Assembly (NCBI GenBank): GCA_035647175.1
Contig: DASRNX010000052.1
Span: 1 to 40,932, forward strand
Source: Clostridia bacterium
Lineage (GTDB): Bacteria; Bacillota; Clostridia; Caldicoprobacterales; UBA3941
Length of the DNA: 40,932 bases
Reading direction: 5' to 3'
This document shows positions 22,195-40,505 of this stretch, in pieces (positions within the stretch are counted from its first letter, which is position 1; every line of letters begins with the position of its first letter). The notes below the pieces were generated by a model. The model made no database searches, was not told the origin of the DNA, and worked only from the letters and a program-made list of their open reading frames with translations. A program made the translations under genes and the position numbers.

Positions 22195-22195
22195 A

Positions 22196-23477: not shown

Positions 23478-23504
23478 AGTTAACGCCGGATGTCCGGGTT
23501 AACT
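23478..23504 (-). terminator. Strong stem-loop after the TIM-barrel gene (terminator-like, no U-tract)
   Basis: AGTTAAC-g-CCGG-atgt-CCGG-GTTAACT gives 11 bp with one bulge and a 4-nt loop, 19 nt after the stop at 23523. Confidence 0.35.
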
Positions 23505-23522
23505 AGCAGCACAACGGATCAA

Positions 23523-24296: not shown

Positions 24297-24316
24297 AGTA
24301 TAACACTCCTTCTTTA

Positions 24317-25687: not shown

Positions 25688-27703
25688 CTATTCCTGCCAA
25701 CGTCCTCCAAGGTGCTCTGCCAGAAACTTTTCAGCTGCAGTGTAGAATGTATTTCTGTCATCCGGTGACGAAAAGCCATGCCCCGCATTGGGAAACAGTA
25801 GATACCTTACATCCAAACCGTGTTCTTCCATAGCCCTAACAATCTGATCGGACTCCGATTGTTTTACCCTGGGGTCATTGCCGCCTTGGGCAATAAGAAC
25901 CGGTATCTTTATTTGATCAACCTTAAAAAGAGGTGATCTGGATTCTAGAAATTCCTTTTCGGTTTTTAAATTCCCCACCCTCCTATAATAATTATCTAGG
26001 ATAGGCGTCCAATAAGGGGGTATGGATCCTAAAAGTGTAACTAAGTTACTGGGGCCGAAGAGATCGACAGCGCAAGCAAATACATCAGGTGTAAAGGATG
26101 CGCCGACAAGGGCAGCATATCCCCCATAAGAACCCCCGTATATGCCTATCCTTTTTGGATCGGCATACCCTTTATCTATGGCCCAGTTGACCCCGTCGAT
26201 TAAATCGTCATGCATCCTGGCTCCCCATTCCTTGTTACCCGCATTTAAGAAGTCCTTACCATACCCCGAAGACCCCCTAAAGTTTACCTGTAAGACTACA
26301 TAACCGCGATTTGCCATCCATTGGATCTCCGGATCAAATCCCCATATATCCCTGGACCAGGGGCCGCCATGAACGTTGAGTATCAAGGGCAGATCCTCCC
26401 TTTCTGATCCAAGAGGGAAAGTTATATACCCGTGGATAGTAAGCCCATCCCTGGATTTATAGGATATCGGTTCAGTCTTAGCCAAGGTATAGTCATTTAG
26501 ATCCGGTAATTCATCGAATAGGTGGTTGCCTTCATCCTTTTCGCTATCATATATATAGTAGGATAGTGGCTCATCATCACTGGTAAAGGCCAGCAACCAA
26601 ACCCTATCATCCTCGCTGCCGCTTACAAAGGAGACATCCCCATCGTTTAACTTGGAGATAGTTTCGAATGCTTTTTCGGTATCGGCGTTAAAAAACACCC
26701 ATTCCTTTCTCTGCTTTATAAAGGAAGCCCCTTGGATCTCATAGGTTTCGTCGTCGATTAATACCTCATTTACGTCGTAGTCGGGATCTTCTATTAGTAC
26801 CGTATTTTCACCGGTTTCAATGTCGACCCTTATTAACCTCCCCGCATTGGATTCTCTTGAATCCAGGATCAATACGCTACCGCCATCTTTTGTAAAGCCT
26901 AAGGGTGCGCTATTATTGGATGATTCATAATCCCAAGAAATAAGGGTTCTCCAGCTATTGTCTCTGTTATCCCGCACCAAAATGTCTGATCCCCCATCGG
27001 GATTTGATGCTAAAGCACCCCTGACATCACCTTTGTCATCTGTCATCCAGCCTTGTATGTTCCCGGGGTTTCTCTCTAGCAATTCTATTGAGCCACTGCT
27101 TATCCCTACCCTATAGACATGGTGGTTAGCGGGGTCATCCTTATTAAGGGCGATCAATACTTCATCGGGTCGCTTGCTGCTTGCTTCTATGACCATAGCC
27201 TGTATATCATCATAGGGTGTTAAATCCTTTATCTTACCCGTCTCAATATTGGATGCGTATAGGTGGTAGTTTTCATCCCCCAAGGAATCTTGCAGGATTA
27301 AAATATGCTTGTTGTCACCTGCCCAAAAGAACCTATAATTTCCGGGGGTACTGGGCTGTTGGACTACTATGTCCCTGCGATCCTGTTCCAGATCTCTTAC
27401 TAATATTGTATCGTATCCATCTTCATACAGGCGGTATGCAAGCCTAGTACCGTCAGGAGATATGCTGGGCGAGGTCCTCACGGGATCTGCAAAGAGAACC
27501 TCCCTGGGTATCAGGTCTGCTTCTCCTTGATCAGCCTCGCCCTTTTGATCCGTTTTATAATCTTCTATTTTTTCTGCGTGGTTACCGGAGTCTATTTCAT
27601 CGACTCTAACGGGTAATATGCCATTTTCACCGACGCAGGACGACATTACCAAAGTCAAAACAACCAGAATTAATGCTATGGATCGCAGCCTAAAAAATTT
27701 CAT
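25688..27703 (-). CDS. S9-family serine peptidase (prolyl oligopeptidase / dipeptidyl-peptidase type), probable lipoprotein
   Basis: Signal peptide with LVMSSC. A beta-propeller-like N-terminal half. The triad motifs are GGSYGGY (Ser), GGNDPRV (Asp) and NAGHGF (His). GAGAGGAGA precedes the ATG, and the gap after the upstream gene is only 39 nt. Confidence 0.85.
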   Translation of the reverse strand: MKFFRLRSIALILVVLTLVMSSCVGENGILPVRVDEIDSGNHAEKIEDYKTDQKGEADQGEADLIPREVLFADPVRTSPSISPDGTRLAYRLYEDGYDTILVRDLEQDRRDIVVQQPSTPGNYRFFWAGDNKHILILQDSLGDENYHLYASNIETGKIKDLTPYDDIQAMVIEASSKRPDEVLIALNKDDPANHHVYRVGISSGSIELLERNPGNIQGWMTDDKGDVRGALASNPDGGSDILVRDNRDNSWRTLISWDYESSNNSAPLGFTKDGGSVLILDSRESNAGRLIRVDIETGENTVLIEDPDYDVNEVLIDDETYEIQGASFIKQRKEWVFFNADTEKAFETISKLNDGDVSFVSGSEDDRVWLLAFTSDDEPLSYYIYDSEKDEGNHLFDELPDLNDYTLAKTEPISYKSRDGLTIHGYITFPLGSEREDLPLILNVHGGPWSRDIWGFDPEIQWMANRGYVVLQVNFRGSSGYGKDFLNAGNKEWGARMHDDLIDGVNWAIDKGYADPKRIGIYGGSYGGYAALVGASFTPDVFACAVDLFGPSNLVTLLGSIPPYWTPILDNYYRRVGNLKTEKEFLESRSPLFKVDQIKIPVLIAQGGNDPRVKQSESDQIVRAMEEHGLDVRYLLFPNAGHGFSSPDDRNTFYTAAEKFLAEHLGGRWQE

Positions 27704-27742
27704 GGGGCGTCTCCTCTCGGATCTATATTGCTTAAATCATTG

Positions 27743-30544
27743 CTACAACCTCTTTCGCTTATCCCCCTTACGAGCCTTTAGCAGCTGGGTTGTAAAGCCC
27801 GGGGCCTCATCTTCAGGGTCCTTCGACGTTCCCTCATGGACGTTTTTACCAGCCGTTTTTGGGGATCTTCTCTCCTTTTCTATCCCCGGCTCAGTAGCCC
27901 TTTGACCTCTTGCCTTTTGATTTTCTCCCCTGACTATCCTTCCCCCATGACCCTGGTCTTTTGCTGCCTTATCCCCCGCGAGTTTAAAATGTTTTCCTAT
28001 TAGATCCGCTATATTAAGCCTTCTCATGGCTATATCTAAAACAAATAAAAGTAAGGCTATGGGGAGCAGCCATGGCCAGATCCCCGTTTGGGTCCATACC
28101 GGCTCTGGGTCCTCCCTGAAAATCTCTTCCGGATTATCTATTATCCTTCCCCCAGTCTGTGCGACGATCTCCTTTAAAAAATCTATGGAACCGGACTGCC
28201 TGAGATCATATTCGGGGGAATAGTTAACCGCCAAACCCGCCTCTAAAGTATTTACTATTTTACCGCCTTTACTATGCCGGGTATTCACTATATATACCCC
28301 GGGCATTGTTATACCAAAATTACCCTCGTACTTTCCCGGCCGGGTTACTTCAAGGGGCACTATGGTTTCCTTACCTTTTGGACCAATAATTATAGCCTCC
28401 CCATCCAAGTCTTCTTTCATATTGTGATCCAGCTTCACCGATATTTGTCCCTGATTACCATGCAACGATGTCTCTATGAACCCTTGGGAATCATCACCAA
28501 AGGGTAGAATCCTGGATATCACTCCCAGCCAGAATTCCTCCGTTTGATCCCAACTGAGCCAATTCTTTGTCCATGCCCCCCGGATATCGCTGGTCCAGGC
28601 TACCACCCTTCCAAGCCCATATTGCCACTCGGCCAATATAGGGTCCATGGTATCGCTTGATAGAGCCATGGTGGCTGTATTCTTTGAAAGCGTAGTGATA
28701 TATCCGTCAAGGGGCGGAAAACCCTCTTTAAAGCCGCTTATAATCGGGGAATGTTCGGTTATAGTAGGGAAAAATGTACGATTTTGTATATAGCTCTGGC
28801 TGGCCATACGGGTTTCCTTGGTAAATATCTTGGGGATATCGGCGAATTCGTCAGTAAAATAATACCGCCCACCCCCGCTTTTCGCCAATTCTTCCAATAG
28901 GAATTGATCCGCATCCTGGCCTACGGCCACGGCAGAAAGGGTTATCCCCTCTTTTTTCATTTTATCCAACATCCCGTCATAATCTCCGGGCATGGATTGG
29001 CCGTCGGTCATCAATATAACATGCTTTAGCTTTGTATTGAGTCCTCTTAAGGATTCGTAAGCCAGGGATAACCCGGGATATATATTGGTCCCGCCCATAG
29101 CGGGTATGGAGAGAATTTTCTCATGGATCCCATCCAGATCCTCGGGGTGCTGAGTATTTACTACCCAAAGCGCCTCGCTATCGAAGGCTACCACTCCTAC
29201 ATAGTCCATGGTTCTTAGGCTTTCTGTAGATCTTATAGCCGCTTCCTTTGCCATATCCATCTTGGAAATACCGTATTGCCCGTCGGCCATACTCCCGGAT
29301 TTATCTATAACCAACACCAGCCCAAGATCCGGGACCTCGGCCTTATGGTTCAAATCGAGATCCACCGGCAACATCTCAGCCAGTTGGGTATCCATATATC
29401 CGCCAAGAGCATAGCTGTTATCCCCACCTGTAAATAGGATTCCCCGCCCAAGGCTTTTTGCATAGACGTCAAGGATATTTATTTTTTCCTCGCCAAGATC
29501 ATCGGCGGAAACGTTACATAGTATAGTCCCCTGGAACTTTCTTAACTCCTCCAATTCCTTTGGGAGAGAAGATGGATCATAAATCTTGTAGTTCATCCCC
29601 GCAGATTCTAAAATTCCTGCAAGCTCCCTTCCATCGCCCTCCTGTCCTTCTACCAAGGCCAAAATTGGAATCCCTTGCACCTCAGTGTATGTGACTATCC
29701 TGTTGTTTTGCTTTATACTATCTCGCTTTACATCCAATTCCGCCTCATAGGTCTTAATCCCGCCCTCTAGAGCGGTATCCTTGAAGATAAATCGGTTTTC
29801 ACCCTTTAAGATCTCTATCCCTTGTTCTCCAACCAGGCTGCGGTTTGCATATAGCCTAATATTTCCATCGGTGTTTATCGTACTGTCTATGGTAATAGTT
29901 ATGTCATAGGCCTCGCCTTCGTAGAGCTTCGTCGGTACGTCTAAAGAAGAGATCTGTACTTCAGCGCCGGGTTCCGTATCAAAAAAGACCCCATCTATGC
30001 GGATCCCTTGGTGGGAAAGGCTTTTAGCCCTTTGGATGGCTTCGCCCATGTTTTCGTTGCCGTCGGTCAAAAGCAGCACACGCTTTTGGGTATCATCGGG
30101 CATCAAGGCGCTGGCCATCTGAAGTCCGGAACCTATATCCGTATAATTGGGATCCGGGATGGTTTCAAGTCCATGGAAGATCATATCAAAGCTTAGGGGC
30201 TGCTCTACAAAGGTGTCCTTTCCGAAGGTAATAATCCCCGTTTGATATTTAGCCGGCTTATTCTCCATGGATCTGCGCATAAAATCGGCCATGGATCCCC
30301 TTACTTCCCTCGTGCTGTTCGATAGATCCACCGCAAAGATAAGAGTTGTTTTGTCCGAGTATTTTTTTATACTGAATCCCGCCAAGGATAAAATCAATAA
30401 CAAAACTATTATGAACCTTAACACAAGAGAATATTTTTCCCCCGTCCTTTTTATCCTGCTATTTTTGACGTAGCCCCAAAGAATAAAAACGCATGATGGG
30501 ACAGCCAGCAGCAAGATCCACGGATTTCCAAAGCTAATACCCAC
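27743..30544 (-). CDS. Large membrane protein: BatA-type N-terminal double-TM region, two VWA/MIDAS domains, C-terminal TM and basic tail
   Basis: GNPWILLLAVP at the N-terminus. The MIDAS motifs are AVDLSNST and VIDKSGSM. A late hydrophobic segment WPWLLPIALLLFVLDIAM is followed by a ~95-aa K/R-rich tail. The frame is open to 30568 (TTG). The GTG at 30544 is preferred because GGTGGG lies 9 nt upstream and it places the BatA motif at the N-terminus. Confidence 0.75.
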   Translation of the reverse strand: MGISFGNPWILLLAVPSCVFILWGYVKNSRIKRTGEKYSLVLRFIIVLLLILSLAGFSIKKYSDKTTLIFAVDLSNSTREVRGSMADFMRRSMENKPAKYQTGIITFGKDTFVEQPLSFDMIFHGLETIPDPNYTDIGSGLQMASALMPDDTQKRVLLLTDGNENMGEAIQRAKSLSHQGIRIDGVFFDTEPGAEVQISSLDVPTKLYEGEAYDITITIDSTINTDGNIRLYANRSLVGEQGIEILKGENRFIFKDTALEGGIKTYEAELDVKRDSIKQNNRIVTYTEVQGIPILALVEGQEGDGRELAGILESAGMNYKIYDPSSLPKELEELRKFQGTILCNVSADDLGEEKINILDVYAKSLGRGILFTGGDNSYALGGYMDTQLAEMLPVDLDLNHKAEVPDLGLVLVIDKSGSMADGQYGISKMDMAKEAAIRSTESLRTMDYVGVVAFDSEALWVVNTQHPEDLDGIHEKILSIPAMGGTNIYPGLSLAYESLRGLNTKLKHVILMTDGQSMPGDYDGMLDKMKKEGITLSAVAVGQDADQFLLEELAKSGGGRYYFTDEFADIPKIFTKETRMASQSYIQNRTFFPTITEHSPIISGFKEGFPPLDGYITTLSKNTATMALSSDTMDPILAEWQYGLGRVVAWTSDIRGAWTKNWLSWDQTEEFWLGVISRILPFGDDSQGFIETSLHGNQGQISVKLDHNMKEDLDGEAIIIGPKGKETIVPLEVTRPGKYEGNFGITMPGVYIVNTRHSKGGKIVNTLEAGLAVNYSPEYDLRQSGSIDFLKEIVAQTGGRIIDNPEEIFREDPEPVWTQTGIWPWLLPIALLLFVLDIAMRRLNIADLIGKHFKLAGDKAAKDQGHGGRIVRGENQKARGQRATEPGIEKERRSPKTAGKNVHEGTSKDPEDEAPGFTTQLLKARKGDKRKRL

Positions 30545-32363
30545 GCTGATACACCCACCATTCTGCAAGGATCAAAATCAATACCGCCCAGATAAAATAA
30601 TGCCAAACGCTTTTACCCGTAGAAAGCCTTAATCTGTCATCCGTCTGTATTTTTGTTTCAGTGCTCGGCTGGTCAATGAGCCTTAAATCCGATTCTTTTA
30701 AAGTCGGTATGTGCACAGTAAAATATCCTTCTATATCCTTTTCGTCTATTCTTTGTCTAACCTTGTACACACCCACTTCTTGGGTTTCGCTAAAAGGCGG
30801 GATAGGAAACGGCGGGCCTACATCCATGGTTAATCCGTAGGGGTTCTCTACCGTTACCTTTTGGGCATGGGGAAATGGGTTGATCTCCACCTCGTCCCCC
30901 GCGAATCTTTCGGCATCGTAGTCAACTATCTGGGGGAGCATCCACCCCAATAGATTCTGCATAAGGATTGGAAAATCAGACTTTAGGGGCAGATCACTTT
31001 TATGAATCTCAAAGGGAAAGATTGCAATCCTTTGGTTCTCCAATTGCCCAACCATCATTATAGGGCGCTGCTTTTCATCCTCCAACACCATTTCGGCCCA
31101 GGGGGGCTTTTCTAATATCCTGGCCTCGGCTATGTGAAAATCCTCAGGGGTAATATAGTTTACCAAATCCCTGTAAGAGGTTCTGCTATTTAGCCTGATA
31201 GCCCCCGGATTAAATATATCACCTATATTTAAAATATCACCGGTACCCACCGGGTTAAAGAGTATTACGCTGCCATCTTCAGGTAATTCCGGCGGCGTGT
31301 ACCCATCATAGACATATAGGTCGTATCCGCCAATATCCCGGGCCCCATCAAGGGTGGTCTTATCAAGTTCCAGGTCCCCTCTAAGACCTATGGCCTTCTC
31401 CAGAAATGTATTTCTGGTAGTAACCAGCAAAACCCTATTGACAGAAGGCGGACTTAGTATAGCCCAGGCCCTGTTATCCGCCATAAGATCATCTTCATCC
31501 AAGATATGAATCTCTATCCTCTGGGCTTTTGTGGGTATATTATCCCAATAGATGTTTTTAGTCTCACCCTCAGATAAGCTGACCTCTTTAACATCTATCA
31601 ATCTGCCGTCTGCCAAGCATTCCACTGAAACCATAGAATCGGATCCATAGTTTGTAATGGCGGATAGAATTATAGGCGTATTTGAATCATAGCTGTAGGT
31701 TACGGATTGTACTGCTCTGTTTTGACCGTTATCGTTATAGATTATGGTATTGTAAGGGTTATCCTCATTATCCCCTGCCTTATGATATTGATCGGAATAG
31801 AGATATATGCCAGAATTTGGTTCTTCCTTGGCGAGGGCCCTGACGAACTCAAAGGCTTCCACCATGTTGGCGAATCCGTTGGTCTCTTTGATCTGGCCCA
31901 GTTTTGCCTTAAGGGTAGCCTTATCGGAGACTTGATTTGCGAGAATTCTTGCCCGATCCGATGCCTCAACTAGGGTCATGCGCTGGTGGGGTAACATTCC
32001 GTCTATAAGTTTTTCTATGTCACTTTTGGCCCTTTGAAACCGGCTGGGCTTTATATCTGTGGCCTGCATACTGGCGGATGAATCAAGGATTATGATATAA
32101 TCGTCTTTTTCTTCTCTGCTATATAAAAAGGGCTGGGATATACCCAATGAAAAAAGGACCAAGGCCATAAGCTGAAGAATCAAAAGGATATTTGCCCTGA
32201 GTCTTTGCCATGGCACACTGGCCTGAAGATTTTGCATGGTCCTCTCCCAAAGAAATGTGCTGGATACCATCATCTCTTGGTTCTGCTGCTTTAATAGGTA
32301 TAATATTATTATGCCGGGGATGGATATGAAAAATAAAAATCCCCAAGGATTTAAAAACTTCAC
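30534..32363 (-). CDS. BatA-like membrane protein with one VWA/MIDAS domain
   Basis: MKFLNPWGFLFFISIPGIIILYLLK matches the aerotolerance-regulator N-terminal motif. The MIDAS motif is ILDSSASM. There is a C-terminal TM (FIWAVLILILAEWWVY). The GTG start overlaps the DUF58 stop as GTGA. Confidence 0.8.
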   Translation of the reverse strand: MKFLNPWGFLFFISIPGIIILYLLKQQNQEMMVSSTFLWERTMQNLQASVPWQRLRANILLILQLMALVLFSLGISQPFLYSREEKDDYIIILDSSASMQATDIKPSRFQRAKSDIEKLIDGMLPHQRMTLVEASDRARILANQVSDKATLKAKLGQIKETNGFANMVEAFEFVRALAKEEPNSGIYLYSDQYHKAGDNEDNPYNTIIYNDNGQNRAVQSVTYSYDSNTPIILSAITNYGSDSMVSVECLADGRLIDVKEVSLSEGETKNIYWDNIPTKAQRIEIHILDEDDLMADNRAWAILSPPSVNRVLLVTTRNTFLEKAIGLRGDLELDKTTLDGARDIGGYDLYVYDGYTPPELPEDGSVILFNPVGTGDILNIGDIFNPGAIRLNSRTSYRDLVNYITPEDFHIAEARILEKPPWAEMVLEDEKQRPIMMVGQLENQRIAIFPFEIHKSDLPLKSDFPILMQNLLGWMLPQIVDYDAERFAGDEVEINPFPHAQKVTVENPYGLTMDVGPPFPIPPFSETQEVGVYKVRQRIDEKDIEGYFTVHIPTLKESDLRLIDQPSTETKIQTDDRLRLSTGKSVWHYFIWAVLILILAEWWVYQRGY

Positions 32364-33244: not shown

Positions 33245-33261
33245 TTTTGTTCATCCCCTTT

Positions 33262-34245: not shown

Positions 34246-34261
34246 TGTATTCTCCCCCCAA

Positions 34262-34289
34262 ATTATGTTTACGAAGACCCTGATATCAA
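34262..34289 (-). promoter_or_regulatory. Candidate internal promoter immediately upstream of moxR
   Basis: On the minus strand: TTGATA (34289-34284), 16 nt, CATAAT (34267-34262), then GGGGGGAGA and the ATG. Confidence 0.4.
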
Positions 34290-34381
34290 TCTATTGCGCT
34301 AGTTCTTTACCAAGATAATGAGCTATTGAAAAGCGGATGACTTCATTGATTGGGCTTAGAAAACTTGGCTTATGGAATGCA

Positions 34382-34432
34382 GAAAAGCCGTAGCTTAAGG
34401 CAGGACGCCGGATTGGAAGCGATAGGCTTTTC
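34382..34432 (-). terminator. Long imperfect stem-loop 10 nt after the stop of the 561-aa gene (intra-cluster terminator/attenuator or processing site)
   Basis: The outer 8-bp stem is GAAAAGCC/GGCTTTTC, with inner GCTT/AAGC and GGC/GCC pairs. The minus-strand 3' arm runs into CUUUUCUGCAUU. Confidence 0.4.
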
Positions 34433-34441
34433 AAGCGGATA

Positions 34442-36127
34442 TTATTCCAGGGCGGTAAAATAGGACTTTATCCATTCTCTCATATTGGGCGGTATACTCA
34501 TCCGTTCAATATTTCGCATCGCCTGATTCTTGTATTCACCAAATACCTCATCGTAAGGTACAAAGCCGTCAAAGTCCCCCAATCCTTGGCCTGTTTCTAT
34601 CTGTTGCCCGGAGCCCTGTTCATTTATATTGCCTTTAACCTGACTTACCTCTCCGCCGTCCCCCAGCCTCTTTGGATCCAATATTCGCTCATATTCCGGA
34701 TGGGCAGTGCCTATACCCGCCCCCTGGCCACCCCCGGCTGAATTGCTATCTGAACCGCCCTGACCACCTTGACCCTGTCCGCTTTGATTACCCTGTCCTT
34801 GCTGTCCGCTTTGGCTGCCCTGTCCTTGCTGTCCGCTTTGGCTGCCCTGGCCTTGCTGTCCGCCTTGGCTTCCTTGTCCCTGACCCGGTTCTTCTATGTT
34901 GCCCTGACTATTCCCCTGGTCTGCATTTGAATTACCACTATCGCCTTCTTGATTATCCGGTCCATTTGATTGAGCGAGCTGGGATTTATCGATATCAACA
35001 CTGCCCGCCTTTGATATCTTATTTTTCATATCCTGCAAGGCATACATGAGGTCCTGTGTTTCGCTTAATGGGCCCCCTGCCAAATCCATAAGTAAGTCTT
35101 CCAAAACCCCCAATTCCTCGGCCAAATCCATAGTATCTTTATCCAGGTTTTTTCCTATATCCCCAGCTAATTCCATAAGCCGGTCTTGGATTTTACCCTT
35201 TCCGAGTTTATCGGCCATCTGCTCCAGCGCATCTTTAACGGCATCCATTGCGTCTTTATCCATACCGCCATTTTTAGCCAATTCCTGAAGGCGCCCCATT
35301 TCTTCCTTTATACCCTCGGTGTCCATCTCCTTTATTTGCTCGCCTAAGGATTTTAAGGCCTCCTGCCTCGACAGCCCCTCTCCCAGATCCGCCATCTCCT
35401 GCCTTTTGGTTTCCTTGGCCAGCTCTATAATCTCTTCCTGAGTTTTAGATATCTCTTTTAAGGCCTCGCGGTGGTCCCTAGTCTTTTTTAGTTTATCGGT
35501 TAGCCGAGCCAGAAGCTTTTTAATCTCTTCCCGTTCCTTAGGGGTTAATCCGGCTTCCATGGCCAATTCTTTGTTGCTTTCATCCTCTAATCTTTTAAGC
35601 TGCTCTTCTATGACTTTTTCGGCGTGTAACCTTTTCTTTATTATCCCATCCTGGGGATTGGGAATAAAAAAACCAGACATCAATAACATTAGAAGGCCCA
35701 TCGCTATAAGGCTGCTCTTCTTTGATGTAGTAATGTCGATGTTTTTAGGATCGAAGGCCTTTAGCCTGTTTAAGGTATCATGCCTTTGGGCCTTTGCGAA
35801 TTGGTCATCCCTATGGCTTAATTCATAGGCTGTAGTAATTCGTTCCTCAAACCCCAACTTGTCTGCTTTTTTAGTCATCTTAGAAATAGAAGGTCTTGTA
35901 ACCCATGAGACGAGAAATGTTATGGCCATAACAATCCCACCTGTATAGGCCATGATACTCTTAATATGAATAATGGGGATAAGGAAGGACACCCCCATCC
36001 ACAGGATACCTTGCCCAATGGCAGCTATTGATCCCCAGATAACACCGTGAATTAAATGCTGGGCCGTAAGCCGCCTTCTAATAGGCCCAAAGGCCCTATG
36101 GATTTTAGAATCAACACCTCTAGACAT
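34442..36127 (-). CDS. Membrane-anchored coiled-coil protein with Gln/Gly/Ser-rich low-complexity region; unknown function
   Basis: 561 aa with three hydrophobic segments in the first ~155 aa. These are followed by ~230 aa of charged heptad-like sequence (EEQLKRLEDESNKE...), then (SGQQGQGSQ)n, and a conserved-looking C-terminus IPPNMREWIKSYFTALE. Confidence 0.7.
   Translation of the reverse strand: MSRGVDSKIHRAFGPIRRRLTAQHLIHGVIWGSIAAIGQGILWMGVSFLIPIIHIKSIMAYTGGIVMAITFLVSWVTRPSISKMTKKADKLGFEERITTAYELSHRDDQFAKAQRHDTLNRLKAFDPKNIDITTSKKSSLIAMGLLMLLMSGFFIPNPQDGIIKKRLHAEKVIEEQLKRLEDESNKELAMEAGLTPKEREEIKKLLARLTDKLKKTRDHREALKEISKTQEEIIELAKETKRQEMADLGEGLSRQEALKSLGEQIKEMDTEGIKEEMGRLQELAKNGGMDKDAMDAVKDALEQMADKLGKGKIQDRLMELAGDIGKNLDKDTMDLAEELGVLEDLLMDLAGGPLSETQDLMYALQDMKNKISKAGSVDIDKSQLAQSNGPDNQEGDSGNSNADQGNSQGNIEEPGQGQGSQGGQQGQGSQSGQQGQGSQSGQQGQGNQSGQGQGGQGGSDSNSAGGGQGAGIGTAHPEYERILDPKRLGDGGEVSQVKGNINEQGSGQQIETGQGLGDFDGFVPYDEVFGEYKNQAMRNIERMSIPPNMREWIKSYFTALE
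34791..34871. repeat. In-frame 27-bp tandem repeat (two identical copies and one copy with three mismatches)
   Basis: 34791-34817 and 34818-34844 are identical (CCCTGTCCTTGCTGTCCGCTTTGGCTG). 34845-34871 differs at 3 positions. The repeat encodes the SGQQGQGSQ units of the 561-aa protein. Confidence 0.85.
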
Positions 36128-36158
36128 TGGTACTCTTCCCCCCTTTTGAGAACATGAG

Positions 36159-37133
36159 TTACTTTGATATATTCGCCAAATGCTTTTTCCTAAAACCCCT
36201 GCGAACCGGTTTTATCTTCCATGCGCTAATAGTCAACAAGGTCCCTGCCGCAGACAGCATGATAACAGCATTTCTAATCCATAGGCTCCATTGGCTCCAT
36301 GACCATCCATTTATCATGCCCCCTGTATTGGGGTTTGACGTGCCATAATACCCCATCCCGAACATCATTGAGAGTACGCCTGCCACCCCCAGGTTCCCCC
36401 CGCTTCCCGATTGCCTGGCCAGTATGTCCGCCAGTCCCGTTACAGGATTTAAATAGAATACGAAAGGGGTATAAGAATCTAAGGTCATTCCGCTGACGCT
36501 GCTACTATTATAGTAGTAGGATTGGAGCATAGTCGCCCCAATTATCGCAGTTAATATGCCCAAAACAAAGATAGTCAGATATGATATTACGGTAGAAGTA
36601 ACGGTCTTTTTAAACAGTACAGAGCAAAACATGCCTATGCTCCCAATGGCAAAGGCGGTAATCATATAGAAAGCGAACAACACGACAATATCCCCGGGAG
36701 TTACCCCGCCAAAAAGCAGCGCTAAACTGAATATGGGAATCGAAGATATTATAAGGAGAAATATAAAGCTCATAGAGGAGATTAGCTTTCCCATGACGAT
36801 GCCGGTGGGCGACATCTTGGTACATAACAACAGATCTAAAGTCTGTTTTTCACGTTCGCCGCTTATACTTCCCGCCGTCTGGGCGGGAGTAATCAGCACT
36901 ATAAGGGCGAACTGGAGTATCGCCAAGGTAGTATATATCTGAAGTCCGATAGAATTATTAACATCAAAGGTATTTCCGTAGCCATAGGTATTATCAAAGG
37001 TCAAGTTGAAAAAGAGATAGCTGATCAACAGCATTATTCCAAGATAAACCGTCACCGCCGCGGCAGTCCGCCATCCCCTCATCTTTATTTTTAACTCACT
37101 TACCATAACGGGATTATAAAGCCATTTCTTCAC
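36159..37133 (-). CDS. ABC-2-type transporter permease
   Basis: 324 aa with about 6 TM segments and the ABC-2 hallmark ISGEREKQTLDLLL after TM1-TM2. The GTG start lies 6 nt after GGAGGTGA and overlaps the ATPase gene by 20 nt. Confidence 0.8.
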   Translation of the reverse strand: MKKWLYNPVMVSELKIKMRGWRTAAAVTVYLGIMLLISYLFFNLTFDNTYGYGNTFDVNNSIGLQIYTTLAILQFALIVLITPAQTAGSISGEREKQTLDLLLCTKMSPTGIVMGKLISSMSFIFLLIISSIPIFSLALLFGGVTPGDIVVLFAFYMITAFAIGSIGMFCSVLFKKTVTSTVISYLTIFVLGILTAIIGATMLQSYYYNSSSVSGMTLDSYTPFVFYLNPVTGLADILARQSGSGGNLGVAGVLSMMFGMGYYGTSNPNTGGMINGWSWSQWSLWIRNAVIMLSAAGTLLTISAWKIKPVRRGFRKKHLANISK

Positions 37134-38046
37134 CCTTGGTCACCTCCATAAATATCTGTTCCAAATTACCGTCTGCCTTGCCAAAGGAAAGAATAGGTAG
37201 CTCTTGATTGACTAAAATTCTCAACAGCTTCCAGAGATCTTGATCCTCCCCGCTGTAGGTTACTTCTAGGGAGTTTCCTTCTTGAATTATTTCCTCGACT
37301 AAGGGCTGCTCCTTGAGTAGGTTAATCGCCTCTTCCAATCTATCCATAAACTTCAAACGTATTATAGTCCTTCCCGAAATTCTTCTCATGATATCTTCTA
37401 CACTGCCGTCTATAACCATTTTCCCGTTTTCTATAATTCCTATGGTGTCGCACATTTCTGCCAGTTCCGAAAGGATGTGGGAGCTTATAAGTATGGTCTT
37501 GTTCATTCCCTTTAGCTCCTTTAATATCCCCTTTATCTCAATTCTGGCCCTAGGGTCAAGGCCTGATGCCGGTTCATCCAACACCAGGAGTTCGGGATTG
37601 TGGATTAGGCTCCTAGCCAGGCATAACCTCTGCTTCATTCCACGAGAGAGGGTATCCACATAGCTATCTTTTTTATGACCTAAGTCTACTAATTCCAACA
37701 GCTCGCCGGCTGCCTTCTGCCTTTCCTTATAGGGCATCCCATAACTACTTCCATAAAAGTCCATGTATTCATGGACTTTAAGGTTATCATAAACCCCAAA
37801 GAAGTCCGGCATATAGCCGATCCTTTCCCTTACCTTTAGGGGTTCTCTTACTACATCCATACCCTCTACTTCAACAGTCCCGGAGGTGGGCTGCATCAAG
37901 GTTGCTATTATCTTTATGGTAGTGGTCTTTCCGGCACCGTTAGGGCCTACAAACCCAAATATGCTGCCGGATTCAATCTTTAAGTTGACCTGGTCTACCG
38001 CCGTAAATTTACCATATCTTTTTACCAAATCCTTAATAACCAGCAT
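37114..38046 (-). CDS. ABC transporter ATP-binding protein (ABC-2 / CcmA-GldA-like class) with a ~90-aa C-terminal extension
   Basis: Walker A GPNGAGKTT, signature LSRGMKQRL, Walker B LLVLDEPASGLD. The ATG overlaps the upstream stop as TAATG. Confidence 0.9.
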   Translation of the reverse strand: MLVIKDLVKRYGKFTAVDQVNLKIESGSIFGFVGPNGAGKTTTIKIIATLMQPTSGTVEVEGMDVVREPLKVRERIGYMPDFFGVYDNLKVHEYMDFYGSSYGMPYKERQKAAGELLELVDLGHKKDSYVDTLSRGMKQRLCLARSLIHNPELLVLDEPASGLDPRARIEIKGILKELKGMNKTILISSHILSELAEMCDTIGIIENGKMVIDGSVEDIMRRISGRTIIRLKFMDRLEEAINLLKEQPLVEEIIQEGNSLEVTYSGEDQDLWKLLRILVNQELPILSFGKADGNLEQIFMEVTKGEEMAL

Positions 38047-40505
38047 TAACGCTTCCTCCCCTCAATGATTAGGGTAGGGGCTTCAAAGGAGATGTACTCC
38101 CTCGGTCTTCCCTCTATTTTAATGAGCATTTTCCCTTCGTCGTCTATAAATCTGGATATGGAGTCGGGGCTTATAATAATAGCCCCCCTGGCCTTATGGT
38201 AGGTAATGCTATCGTCTTCATCCATATAATCCCCCTCCCCTGCGTCGAGGGGAGATAGACCGATGGGATCGCCATAGGGTCTTGCAACCACCTCTATCTT
38301 GGTTAATTCCAAGTCCATATAGGGAGTCATATCAAATTCGAAGACTCCTTTACCCCGGTCCAAATAAAAAATCGAATCGTCGGAATGAATCATATCGGAT
38401 AATTCCTTTTTAAGAATCCCCTTTACATAACCCGGAGGTATGCCGACTTGGCCATCTCTTTCATAGACGATATCAAAACCGGACAAAACCACACCGGTAT
38501 TTTGTGGGGTAACCGGTCCTGAACCAACTACCGTAATCTTTTCTTCCAAATCATAATCGCAAAATCCCAACAGGTTGATAAAGTCGTTATGCAATAAATC
38601 GTTGCCGTCATATTTCATTATGAGCCCCTCGACAAAGTTTCGCTTTGCCCACCTACTCCGTTCCTCATCGCTGGGCTGCCTGCTTCCCGAATTGGGGTAT
38701 GGAAATAGGCTGTCGATCATCATATACAGGTCGTTATGCCCGTAACCAGATTGCGTGCTTGGGCTGGAAACTGATAGATTGACTTCCACCTCAACGCCGG
38801 GAATTAGGTTTCCTATCTTTTCAAAATCTCCCGCTAAGGTATATATAGCCGAATCCTCTATAAGGAAGGAAGTGTTATTAATAATTGTACCCTTAACCTT
38901 GCCATCCTTATAATACAGATCCCCTTTTATATCGCCCAAGTTCTCTTTGAAGCCCCTGTACATAAGGGTACGCATAGTCCATACATTGGAATCATAAAGA
39001 GTAATGGAGGAGGGATTACCCTGGGAAACCTTGGCTTTTATAATTCCCCCATGGCTGCTCGGAAAGCTAGAACCGTATGCATAGCCCATATCACCTTCCC
39101 CATAGGGTGTCATGAGGACATCCCCATCTATACTGATGTTATAATCCCCTCTTTTAGGTATGAAAACTCCTACATAGGTATCTATTGTGGCGGTATTCTC
39201 CCTTGCGCTGATGGTGGAAATAGTGTTTATTATGACCTCGCTACCCTTTTGTGAATAGCCAATCCCGTATATACCAATCGAAAACAATATCACAAAACCC
39301 GGGATGGTAAACCACATCCATTCCCTTTTATCTAATTTTTTTAAAATGATATAGTTAATAGGTCCTACCACAAGGAGATATCCCAAAAGAATAATTAAGA
39401 GATTGGTAAAGGGGGGTAGATCCAGGGCTTTAATGGAACTCAACGCCTCCCTGATACCGTAGTTATACCCATATCCATAAGGTTGATAACCGCTAGACGA
39501 CAAATCAGGACCCTTGAGCGTCGCTATAACGCTAGGTTTTAGGTTATTCGTGAGCACCCTCTCCCAAAATGTTTTATTGCCTTCCCAGCTTGTAAAAGGC
39601 TCTAATCCTAAATCAAATCCCGCAATAAAGATATTGCCTCTACCCGAGTTCAATCCCCATATTATTGCCTGTCCACCATCCTCCATAAGTGTCTTGCTGT
39701 CTTGGAGAGAAAGCCCTGCTAAATCCAAGCTCATATTCCCTATTCCCTCAATAGGTTCTGATTTAATAGTGTTGCCAATCTGGCCATCGACAATAGTCGG
39801 CTTAAGGCCTGATAAGGTTTTAGAAGCATTAGAACCGGTCCCGATAATGAGGATACCCCCATTATTTACCCACTGGCCCAGCACTTGCTGCTGCTCCTGT
39901 GTGAATACCGCGGTATCGGCGTTATTTATTACTATCATAGCAAAGTTTTCCATGACTTCAGGGCGATGGGGTATCTCGTCTTTGTTTATTAGAACCGTTT
40001 CATGGTTTGCAAATACGCTGTCGCCACCTAAAGTGCGCCACCAGTATCCAAGTGCCGGCTTATCATCGGTTATCACGCCCATAAGGTATTTATTTAAGGT
40101 CATAGGTTTTAAAGACTTTAATTCCAAGGATTTTAAGGTTTTATTCTTTTGCTTTAGATCAATTTTAAACTTTCTCTGGGTTGTATTGATCTGTGCATAC
40201 AGCATAAAACGTTTTTTCGAATTCTTAGCTATTACCGCAGCTCTTGAATAGGTTATGGCCGTACCTTGATCCTGATTGACTAATACCTCCAGATCCCCAT
40301 GGATATCCTGACCTAAATTTTCTATTTCAATAACGATGGGGGTCCATGAACCTACCCGGTAATGATTATCAAATCCGATTTTAGCCTCTATAATTATATC
40401 TTCCCTTTGGGACTGGTCTTCTTCACCTTCTGCCAATATTCCCATAGGGATTATCGTTAAAACAATCATTAAGATACAAACAAGAATTATTCCTCTGTTA
40501 TTCAC
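38046..40505 (-). CDS. Large signal-peptide/double-TM envelope protein, family not recognised
   Basis: 819 aa with a GTG start after AAGGTGGG and a signal-like N-terminus (ILVCILMIVLTIIPMGILAEG). Two central hydrophobic segments (FTNLLIILLGYLLVVGPINYII and WFTIPGFVILFSIGIYGIGY) separate two ~350-400-aa soluble halves. Confidence 0.7.
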   Translation of the reverse strand: MNNRGIILVCILMIVLTIIPMGILAEGEEDQSQREDIIIEAKIGFDNHYRVGSWTPIVIEIENLGQDIHGDLEVLVNQDQGTAITYSRAAVIAKNSKKRFMLYAQINTTQRKFKIDLKQKNKTLKSLELKSLKPMTLNKYLMGVITDDKPALGYWWRTLGGDSVFANHETVLINKDEIPHRPEVMENFAMIVINNADTAVFTQEQQQVLGQWVNNGGILIIGTGSNASKTLSGLKPTIVDGQIGNTIKSEPIEGIGNMSLDLAGLSLQDSKTLMEDGGQAIIWGLNSGRGNIFIAGFDLGLEPFTSWEGNKTFWERVLTNNLKPSVIATLKGPDLSSSGYQPYGYGYNYGIREALSSIKALDLPPFTNLLIILLGYLLVVGPINYIILKKLDKREWMWFTIPGFVILFSIGIYGIGYSQKGSEVIINTISTISARENTATIDTYVGVFIPKRGDYNISIDGDVLMTPYGEGDMGYAYGSSFPSSHGGIIKAKVSQGNPSSITLYDSNVWTMRTLMYRGFKENLGDIKGDLYYKDGKVKGTIINNTSFLIEDSAIYTLAGDFEKIGNLIPGVEVEVNLSVSSPSTQSGYGHNDLYMMIDSLFPYPNSGSRQPSDEERSRWAKRNFVEGLIMKYDGNDLLHNDFINLLGFCDYDLEEKITVVGSGPVTPQNTGVVLSGFDIVYERDGQVGIPPGYVKGILKKELSDMIHSDDSIFYLDRGKGVFEFDMTPYMDLELTKIEVVARPYGDPIGLSPLDAGEGDYMDEDDSITYHKARGAIIISPDSISRFIDDEGKMLIKIEGRPREYISFEAPTLIIEGRKR

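What the first reader, a model, noticed from the sequence alone, without database searches (positions are those of the whole stretch)
25688..40505. Nine-gene envelope cluster fusing an ABC-2 exporter with a MoxR-DUF58-VWA (Bat-like) module: candidate undescribed system
All nine genes are on one strand and tightly packed. In order they are: the 819-aa signal/2-TM protein; an ABC ATPase (TAATG overlap); an ABC-2 permease (20-nt overlap); after a 31-nt gap, the 561-aa membrane coiled-coil/QG-rich protein; after a 196-nt gap with a hairpin and promoter, MoxR; after 17 nt, DUF58; BatA-like VWA (GTGA overlap); the 941-aa double-VWA protein (overlap); and after 39 nt, the S9 lipoprotein peptidase.

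MoxR-DUF58-BatA/BatB-type sets are widespread (the Bacteroides aerotolerance operon is the namesake), but their molecular function is still unresolved. Here the module lacks the TPR-type Bat components. Instead it is joined to an exporter, two very large proteins I cannot assign to a family, and a protease. Four MIDAS motifs (DxSxS) are present across three proteins.

My working hypothesis is a machine that exports, assembles or remodels a cell-surface component, with MoxR/DUF58 acting on the membrane VWA proteins. I cannot name a characterised system with this composition.
Basis: partly seen in the sequence, partly recalled or inferred. Interest (0 to 1): 0.75.

Follow-up and report, generated by a model that had tools for sequence, protein, structure and literature searches.

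The report
Conserved ABC–MoxR–VWA membrane gene cluster
Eight of the nine genes form a uniformly ordered, uncharacterised operon found in many Bacillota and Chloroflexota; it joins a GldAFG-like ABC transporter module to a MoxR/DUF58/VWA "Bat-like" module, so it is probably one membrane machine of unknown function.

Summary
Nine tightly packed minus-strand genes lie at 25688-40505, with the stated families, gaps and four MIDAS motifs.

The key test, synteny, came out strongly positive. I started from the 819-aa protein alone and collected 80 genome loci, 53 Bacillota, 26 Chloroflexota and 1 Acidobacteriota, at only 23-42% identity. Where the contig was long enough, the downstream genes were:
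- ABC ATPase: 72/72
- ABC-2 permease: 69/69
- 561-aa-like protein: 53/62
- MoxR: 56/57
- DUF58: 52/56
- BatA-VWA: 47/51
- Double-VWA protein: 41/49

Gene order was collinear in 78/80 loci. Five of five look-ups starting from the double-VWA protein gave the same order.

The S9 peptidase is not core; it follows the cluster only in the closest relative.

The 819-aa protein is a GldG/DUF4350-like (GIFT/GATase1-fold) ectodomain protein carrying DUF7408-type beta-sandwiches. The 561-aa protein has three transmembrane helices, a helical stalk and a disordered Gln/Gly-rich region.

The most likely reading is a single two-motor membrane complex (ABC plus AAA+) that assembles or remodels an extracytoplasmic VWA/MIDAS scaffold. 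No paper describing it was found. The closest precedent is a predicted archaeal DUF4350-MoxR-vWA system. The mechanism is inferred, not shown.

The parts
38046..40505 (-). g1, 819 aa. Order of features: signal/anchor helix, beta-sandwich, GIFT/DUF4350/GATase1-like alpha/beta domain, TM hairpin (366-419), then four to five beta-sandwich domains (DUF7408-type). It is the predicted extracytoplasmic partner of the ABC module, analogous to GldG.
   Evidence: AF2 model pLDDT 83.4, pTM 0.79. Foldseek gave only domain-level hits to GH42/GH164/GH35-type alpha/beta plus beta-sandwich and to transglutaminase/C3b Ig-like domains. Of 51 homologues, 30 hit DUF7408, 24 DUF4350, 8 ThuA, 6 DUF4159, 2 IFT52_GIFT and 2 GH42M, all weakly. 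The most conserved stretch is the hairpin loop VGPINYIILKKLDKRE.
37114..38046 (-). g2, ABC ATPase (DrrA/GldA/ABCA-like nucleotide-binding domain) with a DrrA1-3_C domain.
   Evidence: Pfam ABC_tran 1.5e-32 and DrrA1-3_C 4.5e-9. NCBIfam drrA 279 bits and GldA 255 bits, both below their cut-offs. Nearest solved sequences are the ABCA4/ABCA3/ABCA1 NBDs and 1VPL. Walker A at 34, signature at 133, Walker B at 153.
36159..37133 (-). g3, ABC-2 (type V, NosY/GldF-like) permease.
   Evidence: ABC2_membrane_3 1.3e-12 and ABC2_membrane_2 1.6e-10. GldF weak, 7e-7 and far below its cut-off. No solved homologue by sequence.
34442..36127 (-). g4, 561 aa. Order of features: TM hairpin, small conserved (inferred cytoplasmic) helical domain, third TM, about 220-aa helical stalk, about 145-aa disordered Gln/Gly-rich region, two conserved C-terminal helices.
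   Evidence: AF2 pLDDT 72, all-helical, residues 379-525 disordered. No PDB fold match. No Pfam hit for the window protein. One homologue, P0121, gives a sub-threshold DUF4175 hit. Some homologues carry collagen repeats in place of the Q/G region. Conserved C-terminal motif ...VPY..V.G.Y...AM.......IP.GMK..V..YFS.LE.
33262..34245 (-). g5, MoxR AAA+ ATPase (MRP-type, AAA_3).
   Evidence: AAA_3 7.8e-62 and AAA_lid_2 2.3e-19. Nearest structure 2R44, 1.3e-77. Walker A GVPGLGKT at 50.
32360..33244 (-). g6, DUF58 protein (VWA-like with MIDAS). No TM helix was predicted, so it is probably the cytoplasmic adaptor of MoxR.
   Evidence: DUF58 2.2e-35 and VWA_2 2.6e-7. MIDAS D88-S90-S92 invariant in 55 homologues. 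No TM segment.
30534..32363 (-). g7, 609 aa. Order of features: BatA N-terminal double TM, VWA (MIDAS D94), probable GATase1-like domain, C-terminal TM. It is a paralogue of g8.
   Evidence: BatA 1e-12 and VWA_2 5.7e-16. TM segments at 6-24, 57-75 and 586-604. hhalign g7 against g8 gives 98.7% probability, E 2.8e-16; residues 422-563 against the g8 GATase1-like region give 75%.
27743..30568 (-). g8, 941 aa. Order of features: double TM, VWA1 (MIDAS D81), VWA2 (MIDAS D422), GATase1_like domain, TM (830-848), about 90-aa tail.
   Evidence: Two VWA stretches and GATase1_like 1.4e-10. Both MIDAS motifs invariant in 61/61 homologues. More than 1390 homologues.
25688..27703 (-). g9, S9 (prolyl-oligopeptidase family) lipoprotein peptidase with an N-terminal beta-propeller. 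It is a lineage-specific neighbour, not part of the conserved core.
   Evidence: Peptidase_S9 2.7e-47 and GGSYG at 523. It follows g8 only in L087. It is absent after g8 in L003, L005, L088, L089, L090 and L091 and gave 0 hits in 85 loci.
40589..40597 (-). Candidate extended -10 promoter element (TGaTATGAT) about 84 nt upstream of the g1 start.
   Evidence: The motif GATGATATAAT/GGTGGTATAAT aligns in the upstream regions of the window, L087, L086 and L006. This is a consensus match only, not shown to function.
34246..34441 (-). 196-nt g4-g5 spacer, unusually long for this cluster. It contains a 33-nt element (34316-34348) repeated at 15027-15059 and a promoter-like site (34289-34262).
   Evidence: The same gap is 4-153 nt in L001, L002, L005, L086, L087 and L088. 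The fold is not significant. Repeat.

Best explanation
Genes g1-g8 (27743-40505, minus strand) are a single, anciently conserved operon that encodes one membrane-embedded, two-motor complex.

Module 1 is g1-g3. It is a GldAFG/NosDFY-style ABC-2 transporter in which the ATPase (g2) and the type-V permease (g3) work with a large accessory protein (g1). The GIFT/DUF4350-like and beta-sandwich domains of g1 sit outside the membrane.

Module 2 is g5-g8 plus g4. It is a Bat-like set. A cytoplasmic MoxR AAA+ ATPase (g5) and its MIDAS-bearing DUF58 adaptor (g6) act on two paralogous membrane proteins (g7, g8). These proteins display three MIDAS-competent VWA domains and GATase1-like domains on the outer face. 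The stalk protein g4 projects a helical and Gln/Gly-rich region into the wall.

My committed mechanism is that MoxR/DUF58 uses ATP to assemble or switch the g7/g8/g4 scaffold, through their conserved cytoplasmic loops and tails. The ABC module uses ATP either to export a lipid- or polymer-like component or to drive conformational change in the g1 ectodomain. Together they would build or remodel a metal-dependent (MIDAS) protein assembly at the surface of mainly monoderm cells.

Shown:
- gene content, domain content and MIDAS conservation
- co-inheritance of all eight genes in a fixed order across phyla

Inferred:
- topology
- physical association of the two modules
- direction of action
- any substrate

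The S9 peptidase is a local addition.
For: Synteny:
- 80 loci were retrieved through g1 alone.
- Where the contig reaches far enough, they carry g2 in 72/72, g3 in 69/69, g4 in 53/62, MoxR in 56/57, DUF58 in 52/56, g7 in 47/51 and g8 in 41/49. Order is collinear in 78/80.
- The two non-collinear loci are most likely artefacts of overlapping stop-to-stop ORFs in high-GC genomes.
- Gene-called examples cover Proteiniborus, C. puniceum, Bacillus sp., Dictyobacter, A. clariflavus and Mahella.
- 5/5 look-ups started from g8 show the same eight genes.
- g1 identity across these loci is only 23-42%, so the order has survived deep divergence.

Truncated variants:
- Some loci keep g1-g5 (L015, L016, L022) or g1-g6 (L035, L038) and lack the VWA genes. 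MoxR therefore stays with the ABC part.

Coupling:
- Overlapping or near-abutting junctions in the window.
- g4-g5 gaps of 4-35 nt in several relatives.

g1 as a GldG-like accessory protein:
- Confident AF2 model.
- GH42-type alpha/beta domain hits.
- DUF4350, ThuA, DUF4159 and IFT52_GIFT hits among homologues.

Functional MIDAS sites:
- Invariant in g6, g7 and g8.

Topology precedent:
- The VWA domain of the BatA-like protein BB0173 faces the periplasm (PMC5700661).

MoxR proteins generally:
- They act as chaperone-like maturases with VWA cofactors (PMC3893208).

Independent precedent:
- A predicted archaeal DUF4350(GldG-like)-MoxR-vWA membrane complex (PMC5898192).
Against: - There is no experimental datum for any member, and no substrate, cargo or surface structure gene is identifiable in or next to the cluster.
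- Conserved gene order shows co-function, not physical assembly.
- Topologies rest on hydropathy, the positive-inside rule and analogy.
- The g1 link to GldG/DUF4350 rests on sub-threshold Pfam hits plus fold. The window protein itself scores only E = 0.1 for DUF4350.
- In the window a 196-nt spacer with a promoter-like site separates g4 from g5, so two transcripts are possible here.
- Some genomes have truncated versions, so the VWA proteins are not obligatory next to the rest.
Confidence: 0.5

Rival explanations
1. The ABC-2 transporter with g1 is the real effector: an exporter or floppase for a lipid, glycolipid, polymer or peptide. The MoxR/DUF58/VWA proteins are only its dedicated maturation or quality-control chaperone. 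This would parallel NorQ/NorD for NO reductase, CoxD/CoxE, or RavA/ViaA with respiratory complexes.
For: - MoxR-VWA pairs are typically maturases of one client complex (PMC3893208).
- Truncated loci retain g1-g5 or g1-g6 without g7/g8.
- The g2 NBD is closest to ABCA lipid transporters.
Against: - g7 and g8 are large, highly conserved membrane proteins. g8 has more than 1390 homologues at up to 40-70% identity.
- Both have invariant extracytoplasmic MIDAS sites. That is more than a cytoplasmic adaptor needs.
- No metal-cofactor client enzyme is encoded.
Confidence: 0.22
2. This is a Bat-type aerotolerance or envelope-stress module, as in Bacteroides, Borrelia, Leptospira, Rhizobium and Francisella, that happens to have recruited an ABC transporter. 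Its physiological role would be oxidative or envelope stress tolerance rather than assembly of a surface structure.
For: - MoxR(AAA_3)-DUF58-BatA_N/VWA content.
- Rhizobium RL3499 is needed for membrane integrity and Francisella MoxR for stress tolerance.
- The Borrelia genes respond to oxygen.
Against: - There are no TPR (BatB/C/E-type) or BatD-type proteins.
- The carriers include strict anaerobes, such as Desulfosporosinus and Clostridium, and lineages that I know (not tested here) to include aerobes: Bacillus, Ktedonobacteria-type Dictyobacter and Limnocylindrales.
- The molecular role of Bat itself is unresolved, so this names a phenotype and not a mechanism.
Confidence: 0.13
3. This is a cell-surface threat-sensing or anti-phage conflict system of the MoxR-vWA type, like the MoxR-vWA-beta-propeller ternary systems and the Esr pathway.
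For: - MoxR-vWA pairs signal from surface sensors in Actinomycetota (bioRxiv 10.64898/2026.09.08.750141).
- g5 gives a secondary bpMoxR hit, 5.2e-14.
- The ectodomains of g1 diverge quickly while its cytoplasmic loop is invariant.
Against: - No kinase, FHA, beta-propeller, effector or toxin genes are present.
- PADLOC gives only generic P-loop similarity.
- AAA_3 (7.8e-62) far outscores bpMoxR.
- Flanking genes are housekeeping and differ between genomes rather than forming a defence island.
Confidence: 0.05
4. Two unrelated systems, an ABC exporter and a Bat-like module, are merely adjacent.
For: - The 196-nt spacer with a promoter-like site between g4 and g5 in the window.
- Bat-like modules exist without ABC genes in other phyla.
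Against: - MoxR follows the ABC genes in 56/57 loci found through g1 alone, across Bacillota, Chloroflexota and one Acidobacteriota MAG, at 23-42% g1 identity.
- 5/5 reverse look-ups agree.
- The spacer is 4-35 nt in several relatives.
- Flanking genes differ in every genome while the eight genes stay together.
Confidence: 0.04

Closest known systems
Bacteroides-type Bat (aerotolerance) locus and its relatives: Borrelia bb0170-bb0176, Leptospira batABD, Rhizobium RL3499-RL3502
   Same: - A MoxR (AAA_3) ATPase is followed by a DUF58 protein and by membrane proteins with the BatA N-terminal double-TM and a MIDAS VWA domain.
- The VWA domain probably faces outward, by analogy with BB0173.
   Different: - There are no TPR, SH3 or BatD-type components.
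- The second VWA protein is a 941-aa double-VWA plus GATase1-like protein.
- It has a fixed ABC ATPase, ABC-2 permease and GldG-like protein upstream, plus a Gln/Gly-rich stalk protein.
- It is found mainly in monoderm phyla.
GldA-GldF-GldG gliding-associated ABC transporter, and the generic 'ABC-2 + ABC_transp_aux/GldG' clusters
   Same: - A DrrA/GldA-like ATPase and a PF12679-type ABC-2 permease.
- A large accessory protein with a GIFT/GATase1-fold ectodomain anchored by flanking TM helices.
   Different: - NCBIfam equivalog scores are far below the cut-offs: GldA 255 against 403, GldF 29.5 against 288.
- There is no GldG or PF09822 hit.
- The accessory gene comes first and carries extra DUF7408 beta-sandwiches and an internal TM hairpin.
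- There is no T9SS or gliding context.
Predicted archaeal arCOG01314 system (DUF4350/GldG-like protein + MoxR + vWA protein + Ig-domain membrane proteins; Makarova et al. 2015, PMC5898192)
   Same: - The same logic. A membrane-anchored GldG-like flavodoxin-fold ectodomain protein is genomically locked to MoxR and a vWA/DUF58-type protein and to Ig-like membrane proteins.
- It was predicted to be a secretion or membrane-remodelling complex.
   Different: - The archaeal neighbourhoods described list no ABC ATPase or permease and no BatA-type or double-VWA/GATase1-like proteins.
- That system is also uncharacterised experimentally.
- Homology of g1 to DUF4350 is only sub-threshold here.
NosDFY (ABC-2 NosFY with periplasmic NosD) as a mechanistic analogue
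   Same: A PF12679-type ABC-2 permease and its ATPase couple ATP hydrolysis to an extracytoplasmic partner protein rather than acting as a simple solute pump. This comparison is from my own knowledge and was not tested here.
   Different: - There is no NosD beta-helix, NosL or NosZ.
- The partner here is g1 with a GIFT-like domain and beta-sandwich domains.
DUF4175 / TIGR02302 alphaproteobacterial Gln/Gly-rich membrane proteins (comparison for g4)
   Same: N-terminal TM helices, a long helical region and a Gln/Gly-rich low-complexity segment. The family description is from memory.
   Different: - The window protein has no hit.
- Only one homologue, P0121, scores 23.7 bits, below the 27.3 cut-off, and in the coiled-coil region where composition can mislead.

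Membership tests
MoxR AAA+ (MRP / AAA_3) | AAA_3 ATPase core plus AAA_lid_2, and Walker A | tested here: met
   AAA_3 207 bits (cut-off 27) and AAA_lid_2 69 bits. GVPGLGKT. 2R44 at 1.3e-77.
Bat (aerotolerance) operon | MoxR followed by DUF58 and a BatA_N + VWA membrane protein | tested here: met
   DUF58 122 bits, BatA 48.7 bits and VWA_2 59.5 bits, in consecutive genes.
Bat (aerotolerance) operon | TPR-containing BatB/C/E-type and BatD-type proteins | tested here: not met
   No TPR or BatD domain in any of the nine proteins, nor in the gene-called relatives.
Bat (aerotolerance) operon | Aerotolerance phenotype | not testable with these tools
   Needs mutants.
GldAFG gliding ABC transporter | GldA equivalog (TIGR03522) | tested here: not met
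   255.5 bits against a cut-off of 402.6.
GldAFG gliding ABC transporter | GldF equivalog (TIGR03518) | tested here: not met
   29.5 bits against a cut-off of 288.5.
GldAFG gliding ABC transporter | GldG-type accessory protein (ABC_transp_aux / GIFT domain) | tested here: inconclusive
   No PF09822 or TIGR03521 hit. The fold is a GH42M-like alpha/beta domain. Sub-threshold DUF4350 hits in 24/51 homologues, ThuA in 8, DUF4159 in 6 and IFT52_GIFT in 2.
ABC-2 (type V) transporter | ABC_tran NBD plus ABC2_membrane-family permease in adjacent genes | tested here: met
Archaeal arCOG01314-MoxR-vWA predicted system | DUF4350 ectodomain protein with a signal peptide, linked to COG0714 MoxR and a vWA protein | tested here: inconclusive
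   The MoxR and vWA linkage is met. DUF4350 is only sub-threshold: window protein E = 0.1, best homologue 4.4e-4.
DUF7408 (PF24157) | Match to the PF24157 model | tested here: inconclusive
   30/51 homologues match weakly, best 4.2e-8. The window protein shows no hit at E <= 1. Precomputed hits exist for P0028, P0031, P0039 and P0050, and weak ones for the L004 and L005 g1 genes.
DUF4175 / TIGR02302 | Match to PF13779 or TIGR02302 | tested here: not met
   No hit for g4. One homologue is below the cut-off.
VWA/MIDAS proteins | DxSxS MIDAS motif conserved | tested here: met
   g6, g7 and both g8 motifs are invariant or nearly so in 36-61 homologues.
Class I glutamine amidotransferase (catalytic) | Conserved nucleophile Cys in the GATase1-like domain of g1 | tested here: not met
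   The invariant columns of g1 (W212, G216, G217, L219, G222, G224 and others) include no Cys or His. The domain is probably non-catalytic.
Peptidase S9 (g9) | Peptidase_S9 domain with a GxSxG nucleophile | tested here: met
   161 bits. GGSYG at 523.
Known anti-phage defence systems (PADLOC) | Specific match of any component | tested here: not met
   Only generic ABC/AAA P-loop similarity.

The most novel reading that the evidence does not exclude
The eight genes encode a previously unrecognised class of envelope machine, largely confined to monoderm Bacillota and Chloroflexota. In it an ABC-2 mechanotransducer and a MoxR AAA+ motor jointly drive a wall-spanning VWA/MIDAS-GIFT ectodomain assembly. 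In effect this would be a new secretion or surface-assembly system, and it would give the first mechanistic handle on what MoxR-DUF58-BatA modules do.
Probability: 0.3. Interest if true: 0.8.

Novelty: new variant of a known kind. Interest (0 to 1): 0.6.

Why it matters
MoxR-DUF58-BatA/VWA modules are among the most widespread bacterial gene sets with no known molecular function. Phenotypes such as aerotolerance, envelope integrity and virulence have been reported since 1999 without a mechanism.

This cluster locks such a module to an ABC transporter and a GldG-like ectodomain protein, in the same order across two phyla. That argues the module works at and across the membrane with an energised partner.

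The g1 family alone has about 4,900 clusters at 50% identity with E <= 1e-30, so the system is common in the environment.

It also occurs in cultured isolates with genome sequences: Acetivibrio clariflavus, Mahella australiensis, Bacillus sp. JJ1764, Lutispora, Desulfosporosinus and Dictyobacter. The question is therefore open to genetics, pull-downs and cryo-EM.

Tried and rejected
- Whole-chain structural analogue for g1: Foldseek against the PDB gave only domain-level hits.
- Structural analogue for g4: nothing below E = 1.
- Linking g4 to DUF4175: a single sub-threshold hit in the coiled-coil region. Rejected as evidence of membership.
- Homology between the g1 N-domain and the g7/g8 GATase1-like domains: hhalign probability 15-28%, not significant.
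- Terminator or hairpin in the g4-g5 spacer: fold z = 0.15 and no terminator-like site called there.
- Riboswitch or other Rfam element in the window or upstream of g1 in six relatives: none. An unrelated THF riboswitch was found in L045.
- Defence-system membership: PADLOC negative.
- S9 peptidase as a member: rejected.
- The first genome scan with the 51-sequence alignment failed for lack of a conserved stretch. It was repeated with 13 sequences.
- The look-up of the Mahella g4 protein P0069 was not on record. The locus was reached later through g8.
- Literature searches for MoxR+DUF58+ABC, DUF7408, MoxR+GldG, DUF4350+DUF58, Bat operon papers since 2018, and DUF1355/DUF4159/DUF4175 found no description of this cluster. 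The A. baumannii AdvA 'DUF4175' protein is unrelated in context.

Full report
**What is in the sequence**

The window is an entire 40,932-bp contig of a 'Clostridia bacterium' MAG. The database protein P0001 is 100% identical to g1, and its longest contig is 40,932 bp.

Nine ORFs lie head to tail on the minus strand between 25688 and 40505.
- g1/g2: TAATG overlap
- g2/g3: 20-nt overlap
- g3/g4: 31-nt gap
- g4/g5: 196-nt gap
- g5/g6: 17-nt gap
- g6/g7: GTGA overlap
- g7/g8: overlap
- g8/g9: 39-nt gap

Pfam and NCBIfam scans confirm the family assignments:
- g2: ABC ATPase with a DrrA-type C-terminal domain
- g3: ABC-2 permease (ABC2_membrane_2 and ABC2_membrane_3)
- g5: MoxR (AAA_3 7.8e-62, AAA_lid_2)
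- g6: DUF58
- g7: BatA N-terminal domain plus VWA
- g8: two VWA domains plus a GATase1_like domain
- g9: S9 peptidase with a lipoprotein-like signal sequence and GGSYG

g1 (819 aa) and g4 (561 aa) have no significant hit.

Four DxSxS MIDAS motifs are present, at g6 D88, g7 D94, g8 D81 and g8 D422. They are invariant or nearly so in 36-61 homologues each, so they are functional sites and not chance strings. A fifth DLSSS string at g1 334 lies in a low-confidence loop and is probably chance.

**The decisive test: are the two halves syntenic?**

I searched one representative genome for each of 185,579 species with a peptide pattern from g1 only. This gave 126 confirmed relatives, of which 80 loci were kept: 53 Bacillota, 26 Chloroflexota and 1 Acidobacteriota MAG. 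They share only 23-42% identity with g1.

I then searched all stop-to-stop ORFs of these loci with the nine window proteins. Where the contig extends far enough downstream of g1, the counts are:

| Gene | Found / loci long enough |
|---|---|
| g2 | 72/72 |
| g3 | 69/69 |
| g4 | 53/62 |
| MoxR (g5) | 56/57 |
| DUF58 (g6) | 52/56 |
| g7 | 47/51 |
| g8 | 41/49 |

- All are on the same strand, and 78 of 80 loci are collinear.
- The two exceptions are most likely artefacts of overlapping stop-to-stop ORFs in high-GC genomes.
- The g4 misses are all in Chloroflexota, where a gene-sized space remains and the low-complexity protein is simply too divergent for phmmer.

Independent gene calls with Pfam labels show the same eight-gene order in six named organisms:
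- Proteiniborus
- Clostridium puniceum
- Bacillus sp. JJ1764
- Dictyobacter, a Ktedonobacteria-type Chloroflexota
- Acetivibrio clariflavus
- Mahella australiensis

Going the other way, all five look-ups that started from a g8 homologue recovered g1-g7 upstream. Flanking genes differ in every genome.

**What is not part of the cluster**

The S9 peptidase gave no hit in any of the 85 loci held at that point. It follows g8 only in the closest relative, L087, whose g8 is 68% identical. Elsewhere the gene after g8 is:
- a transposase (A. clariflavus)
- a Lit-family gene (Mahella)
- a Big_14 protein (L089)
- an aldolase (Dictyobacter)
- a UPF0122 gene (Bacillus)

The conserved unit is g1-g8.

**Informative variants**

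Three loci stop after MoxR: L015, L016 and L022. In L016 the next gene is a GH10 xylanase. Two loci stop after DUF58: L035 and L038. In L038 the next genes are a phosphatase, a glyoxalase and a VanW protein.

When the cluster is shortened, MoxR stays with the ABC part. This argues that MoxR is functionally tied to g1-g4 and not only to the VWA proteins.

**The two 'unassignable' proteins**

g1 gave a confident AlphaFold model (pLDDT 83, pTM 0.79). Its parts, in order, are:
- an N-terminal signal or anchor helix
- a beta-sandwich (37-135)
- an alpha/beta domain (140-300)
- helices
- a TM hairpin (366-419)
- several beta-sandwiches with one helical pair

Foldseek found no whole-chain analogue. 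It matched the alpha/beta plus sandwich region to the GH42/GH164/GH35-type non-catalytic domain, and the sandwiches to transglutaminase and C3b Ig-like domains.

I scanned all 51 aligned homologues against Pfam. The hits were DUF7408 in 30, DUF4350 in 24, ThuA in 8, DUF4159 in 6, IFT52_GIFT in 2 and GH42M in 2, all weak. This is the GldG/GIFT/GATase1-like fold group.

No Cys or His is among the invariant columns, so the domain is probably non-catalytic.

The best-conserved stretch of g1 is the short loop of the TM hairpin (VGPINYIILKKLDKRE.W.TIP). By the positive-inside rule it is cytoplasmic, so it is a likely docking site for a conserved cytoplasmic partner. That is an inference.

g4 is all-helical. 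Its parts, in order, are:
- a TM hairpin
- a small conserved domain (D.LGL.ER..TALEL)
- a third TM helix
- a roughly 220-residue helical stalk
- a disordered Gln/Gly-rich stretch (379-525)
- two conserved C-terminal helices

It has no PDB fold match. In some homologues the low-complexity stretch is replaced by collagen repeats, which fits a spacer or stalk role. A link to DUF4175 rests on one sub-threshold hit and is left open.

g7 and g8 are paralogues over their whole length (hhalign 98.7%, E 2.8e-16). g7 probably also carries a GATase1-like domain (75%).

**How it probably works**

Established knowledge gives three anchors:
- MoxR ATPases act with VWA/MIDAS cofactors as chaperone-like maturases of specific complexes (PMC3893208).
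- The VWA domain of the BatA-like protein BB0173 faces the periplasm and is held by three TM helices (PMC5700661). g7 and g8 have the same TM pattern.
- PF12679-type ABC-2 permeases with DrrA/GldA/ABCA-like NBDs work with large extracytoplasmic partners in GldAFG and, from my own knowledge, in NosDFY.

Putting these together, I infer the following layout:
- Cytoplasmic: g2, g5 and g6.
- Membrane-anchored: g3, g1, g4, g7 and g8.
- Outer face: one GIFT-like domain, one or two GATase1-like domains, three MIDAS VWA domains, many beta-sandwiches and a Gln/Gly stalk.

The most economical reading is one two-motor complex. MoxR/DUF58 would assemble or switch the g4/g7/g8 scaffold from inside. The ABC module would either export a lipid- or polymer-like component or drive g1 mechanically. 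The result would be a metal-dependent surface assembly.

The gene and domain content, the MIDAS conservation and the co-inheritance are shown. The topology, the physical association and any substrate are inferred.

**Regulation**

The 196-nt g4-g5 spacer is atypical. The same junction is 4-35 nt in L002, L005, L086 and L087 and 93-153 nt in L088 and L001. Its predicted fold is no better than shuffled sequence, and sigma-70-like matches in the region are at chance level.

Upstream of g1, an extended -10-like motif (TGnTATAAT type) is conserved among the window and three relatives. No Rfam element is present.

**Comparison with known systems**

The cluster shares MoxR-DUF58-BatA/VWA with Bat loci but fails the TPR/BatD criterion. 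It resembles GldAFG in architecture but fails the equivalog cut-offs.

The closest conceptual precedent is the purely predicted archaeal arCOG01314 (DUF4350, GldG-like)-MoxR-vWA 'novel secretion or membrane remodelling complex' (PMC5898192). The neighbourhoods described there list no ABC transporter and no BatA-type or GATase1-like VWA proteins.

PADLOC gives no specific defence match. Eight literature searches found no description of this eight-gene cluster. The library misses most subscription journals, so this is absence of evidence only.

**Verdict**

The g1 family is large, with 4,888 clusters at 50% identity and E <= 1e-30. The system is therefore common and still uncharacterised. I rate it a new variant of a known kind and moderately high in interest (0.6). 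It offers a concrete, testable handle on the long-unresolved function of MoxR-DUF58-BatA modules, in organisms that can be cultured.

Noticed in passing
window 34316-34348 and 15027-15059: A 33-nt element (CAATGrAGTCATCCGCTTTTCAATAGCyCATTA, read in the direction of the downstream gene) occurs twice at 94% identity. One copy is in the g4-g5 spacer, about 70 nt upstream of MoxR. The other is in the aromatic amino-acid operon, between the DHQ synthase and aminotransferase genes. Both have the same orientation relative to the downstream gene. It could be a shared operator or a small repeat.
   Followed up: partly
L008 (Caldicoprobacter algeriensis) 14909-20066; L007 (C. oshimai) 14729-20738: In L008, g4 is followed directly by g7, with no MoxR or DUF58, and g8 is split into three ORFs. 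In L007, g4 and g7 are each split in two. This may be decay of the cluster in this genus or assembly or frameshift errors.
   Followed up: no
L015, L016, L022 (end after MoxR); L035, L038 (end after DUF58): Naturally truncated versions of the cluster lack the VWA membrane proteins. Unrelated genes follow: GH10 in L016, and a phosphatase, glyoxalase and VanW in L038. I did not check whether g7/g8 sit elsewhere in those genomes.
   Followed up: partly
L004 (Ardenticatenaceae MAG) 1724-15980: An expanded variant has extra genes inserted between the core genes: a 186-aa unknown, a MazE antitoxin, a methyltransferase and a second permease-like gene. A 498-aa protein without BatA or VWA Pfam hits follows DUF58.
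   Followed up: no
g4 homologues P0100 and P0129: The Gln/Gly-rich low-complexity segment is replaced by collagen triple-helix repeats (PF01391) in some homologues. This suggests an extended, possibly trimeric spacer.
   Followed up: no
window 38046-40505, g1 residues 382-402: The most conserved part of the otherwise fast-evolving g1 protein is the short loop of its TM hairpin (P382, Y385, L388, K389, D392, R394, E395, W398, P402). The ectodomains vary.
   Followed up: partly
window 21424-25348 (minus strand): Immediately downstream of the S9 peptidase lie two tandem pairs of a GFO/IDH/MocA oxidoreductase and a xylose-isomerase-like TIM-barrel protein. This looks like a sugar or inositol-type catabolic set unrelated to the cluster.
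   Followed up: no
window 3141-6678 (minus strand): Two adjacent half-transporter genes, each ABC_membrane plus ABC_tran, look like a typical heterodimeric type IV ABC exporter. They are unrelated to the ABC-2 module of the finding.
   Followed up: no
window 8911-9858 (minus strand): A SleB-like cell-wall hydrolase (two PG_binding_1 domains plus Hydrolase_2) suggests a spore-forming organism.
   Followed up: no
L045 5413-5520: A THF riboswitch (71 bits) lies about 4.5 kb upstream of the cluster in Haloimpatiens lingqiaonensis. It is not adjacent to g1 and is presumably unrelated.
   Followed up: no
L091 (GCA_900198705.1, FZPS01000062.1): A complete g1-g8 cluster sits on a record 15.96 Mb long. 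That is unusually large for a bacterial contig, and the organism was not identified here.
   Followed up: no
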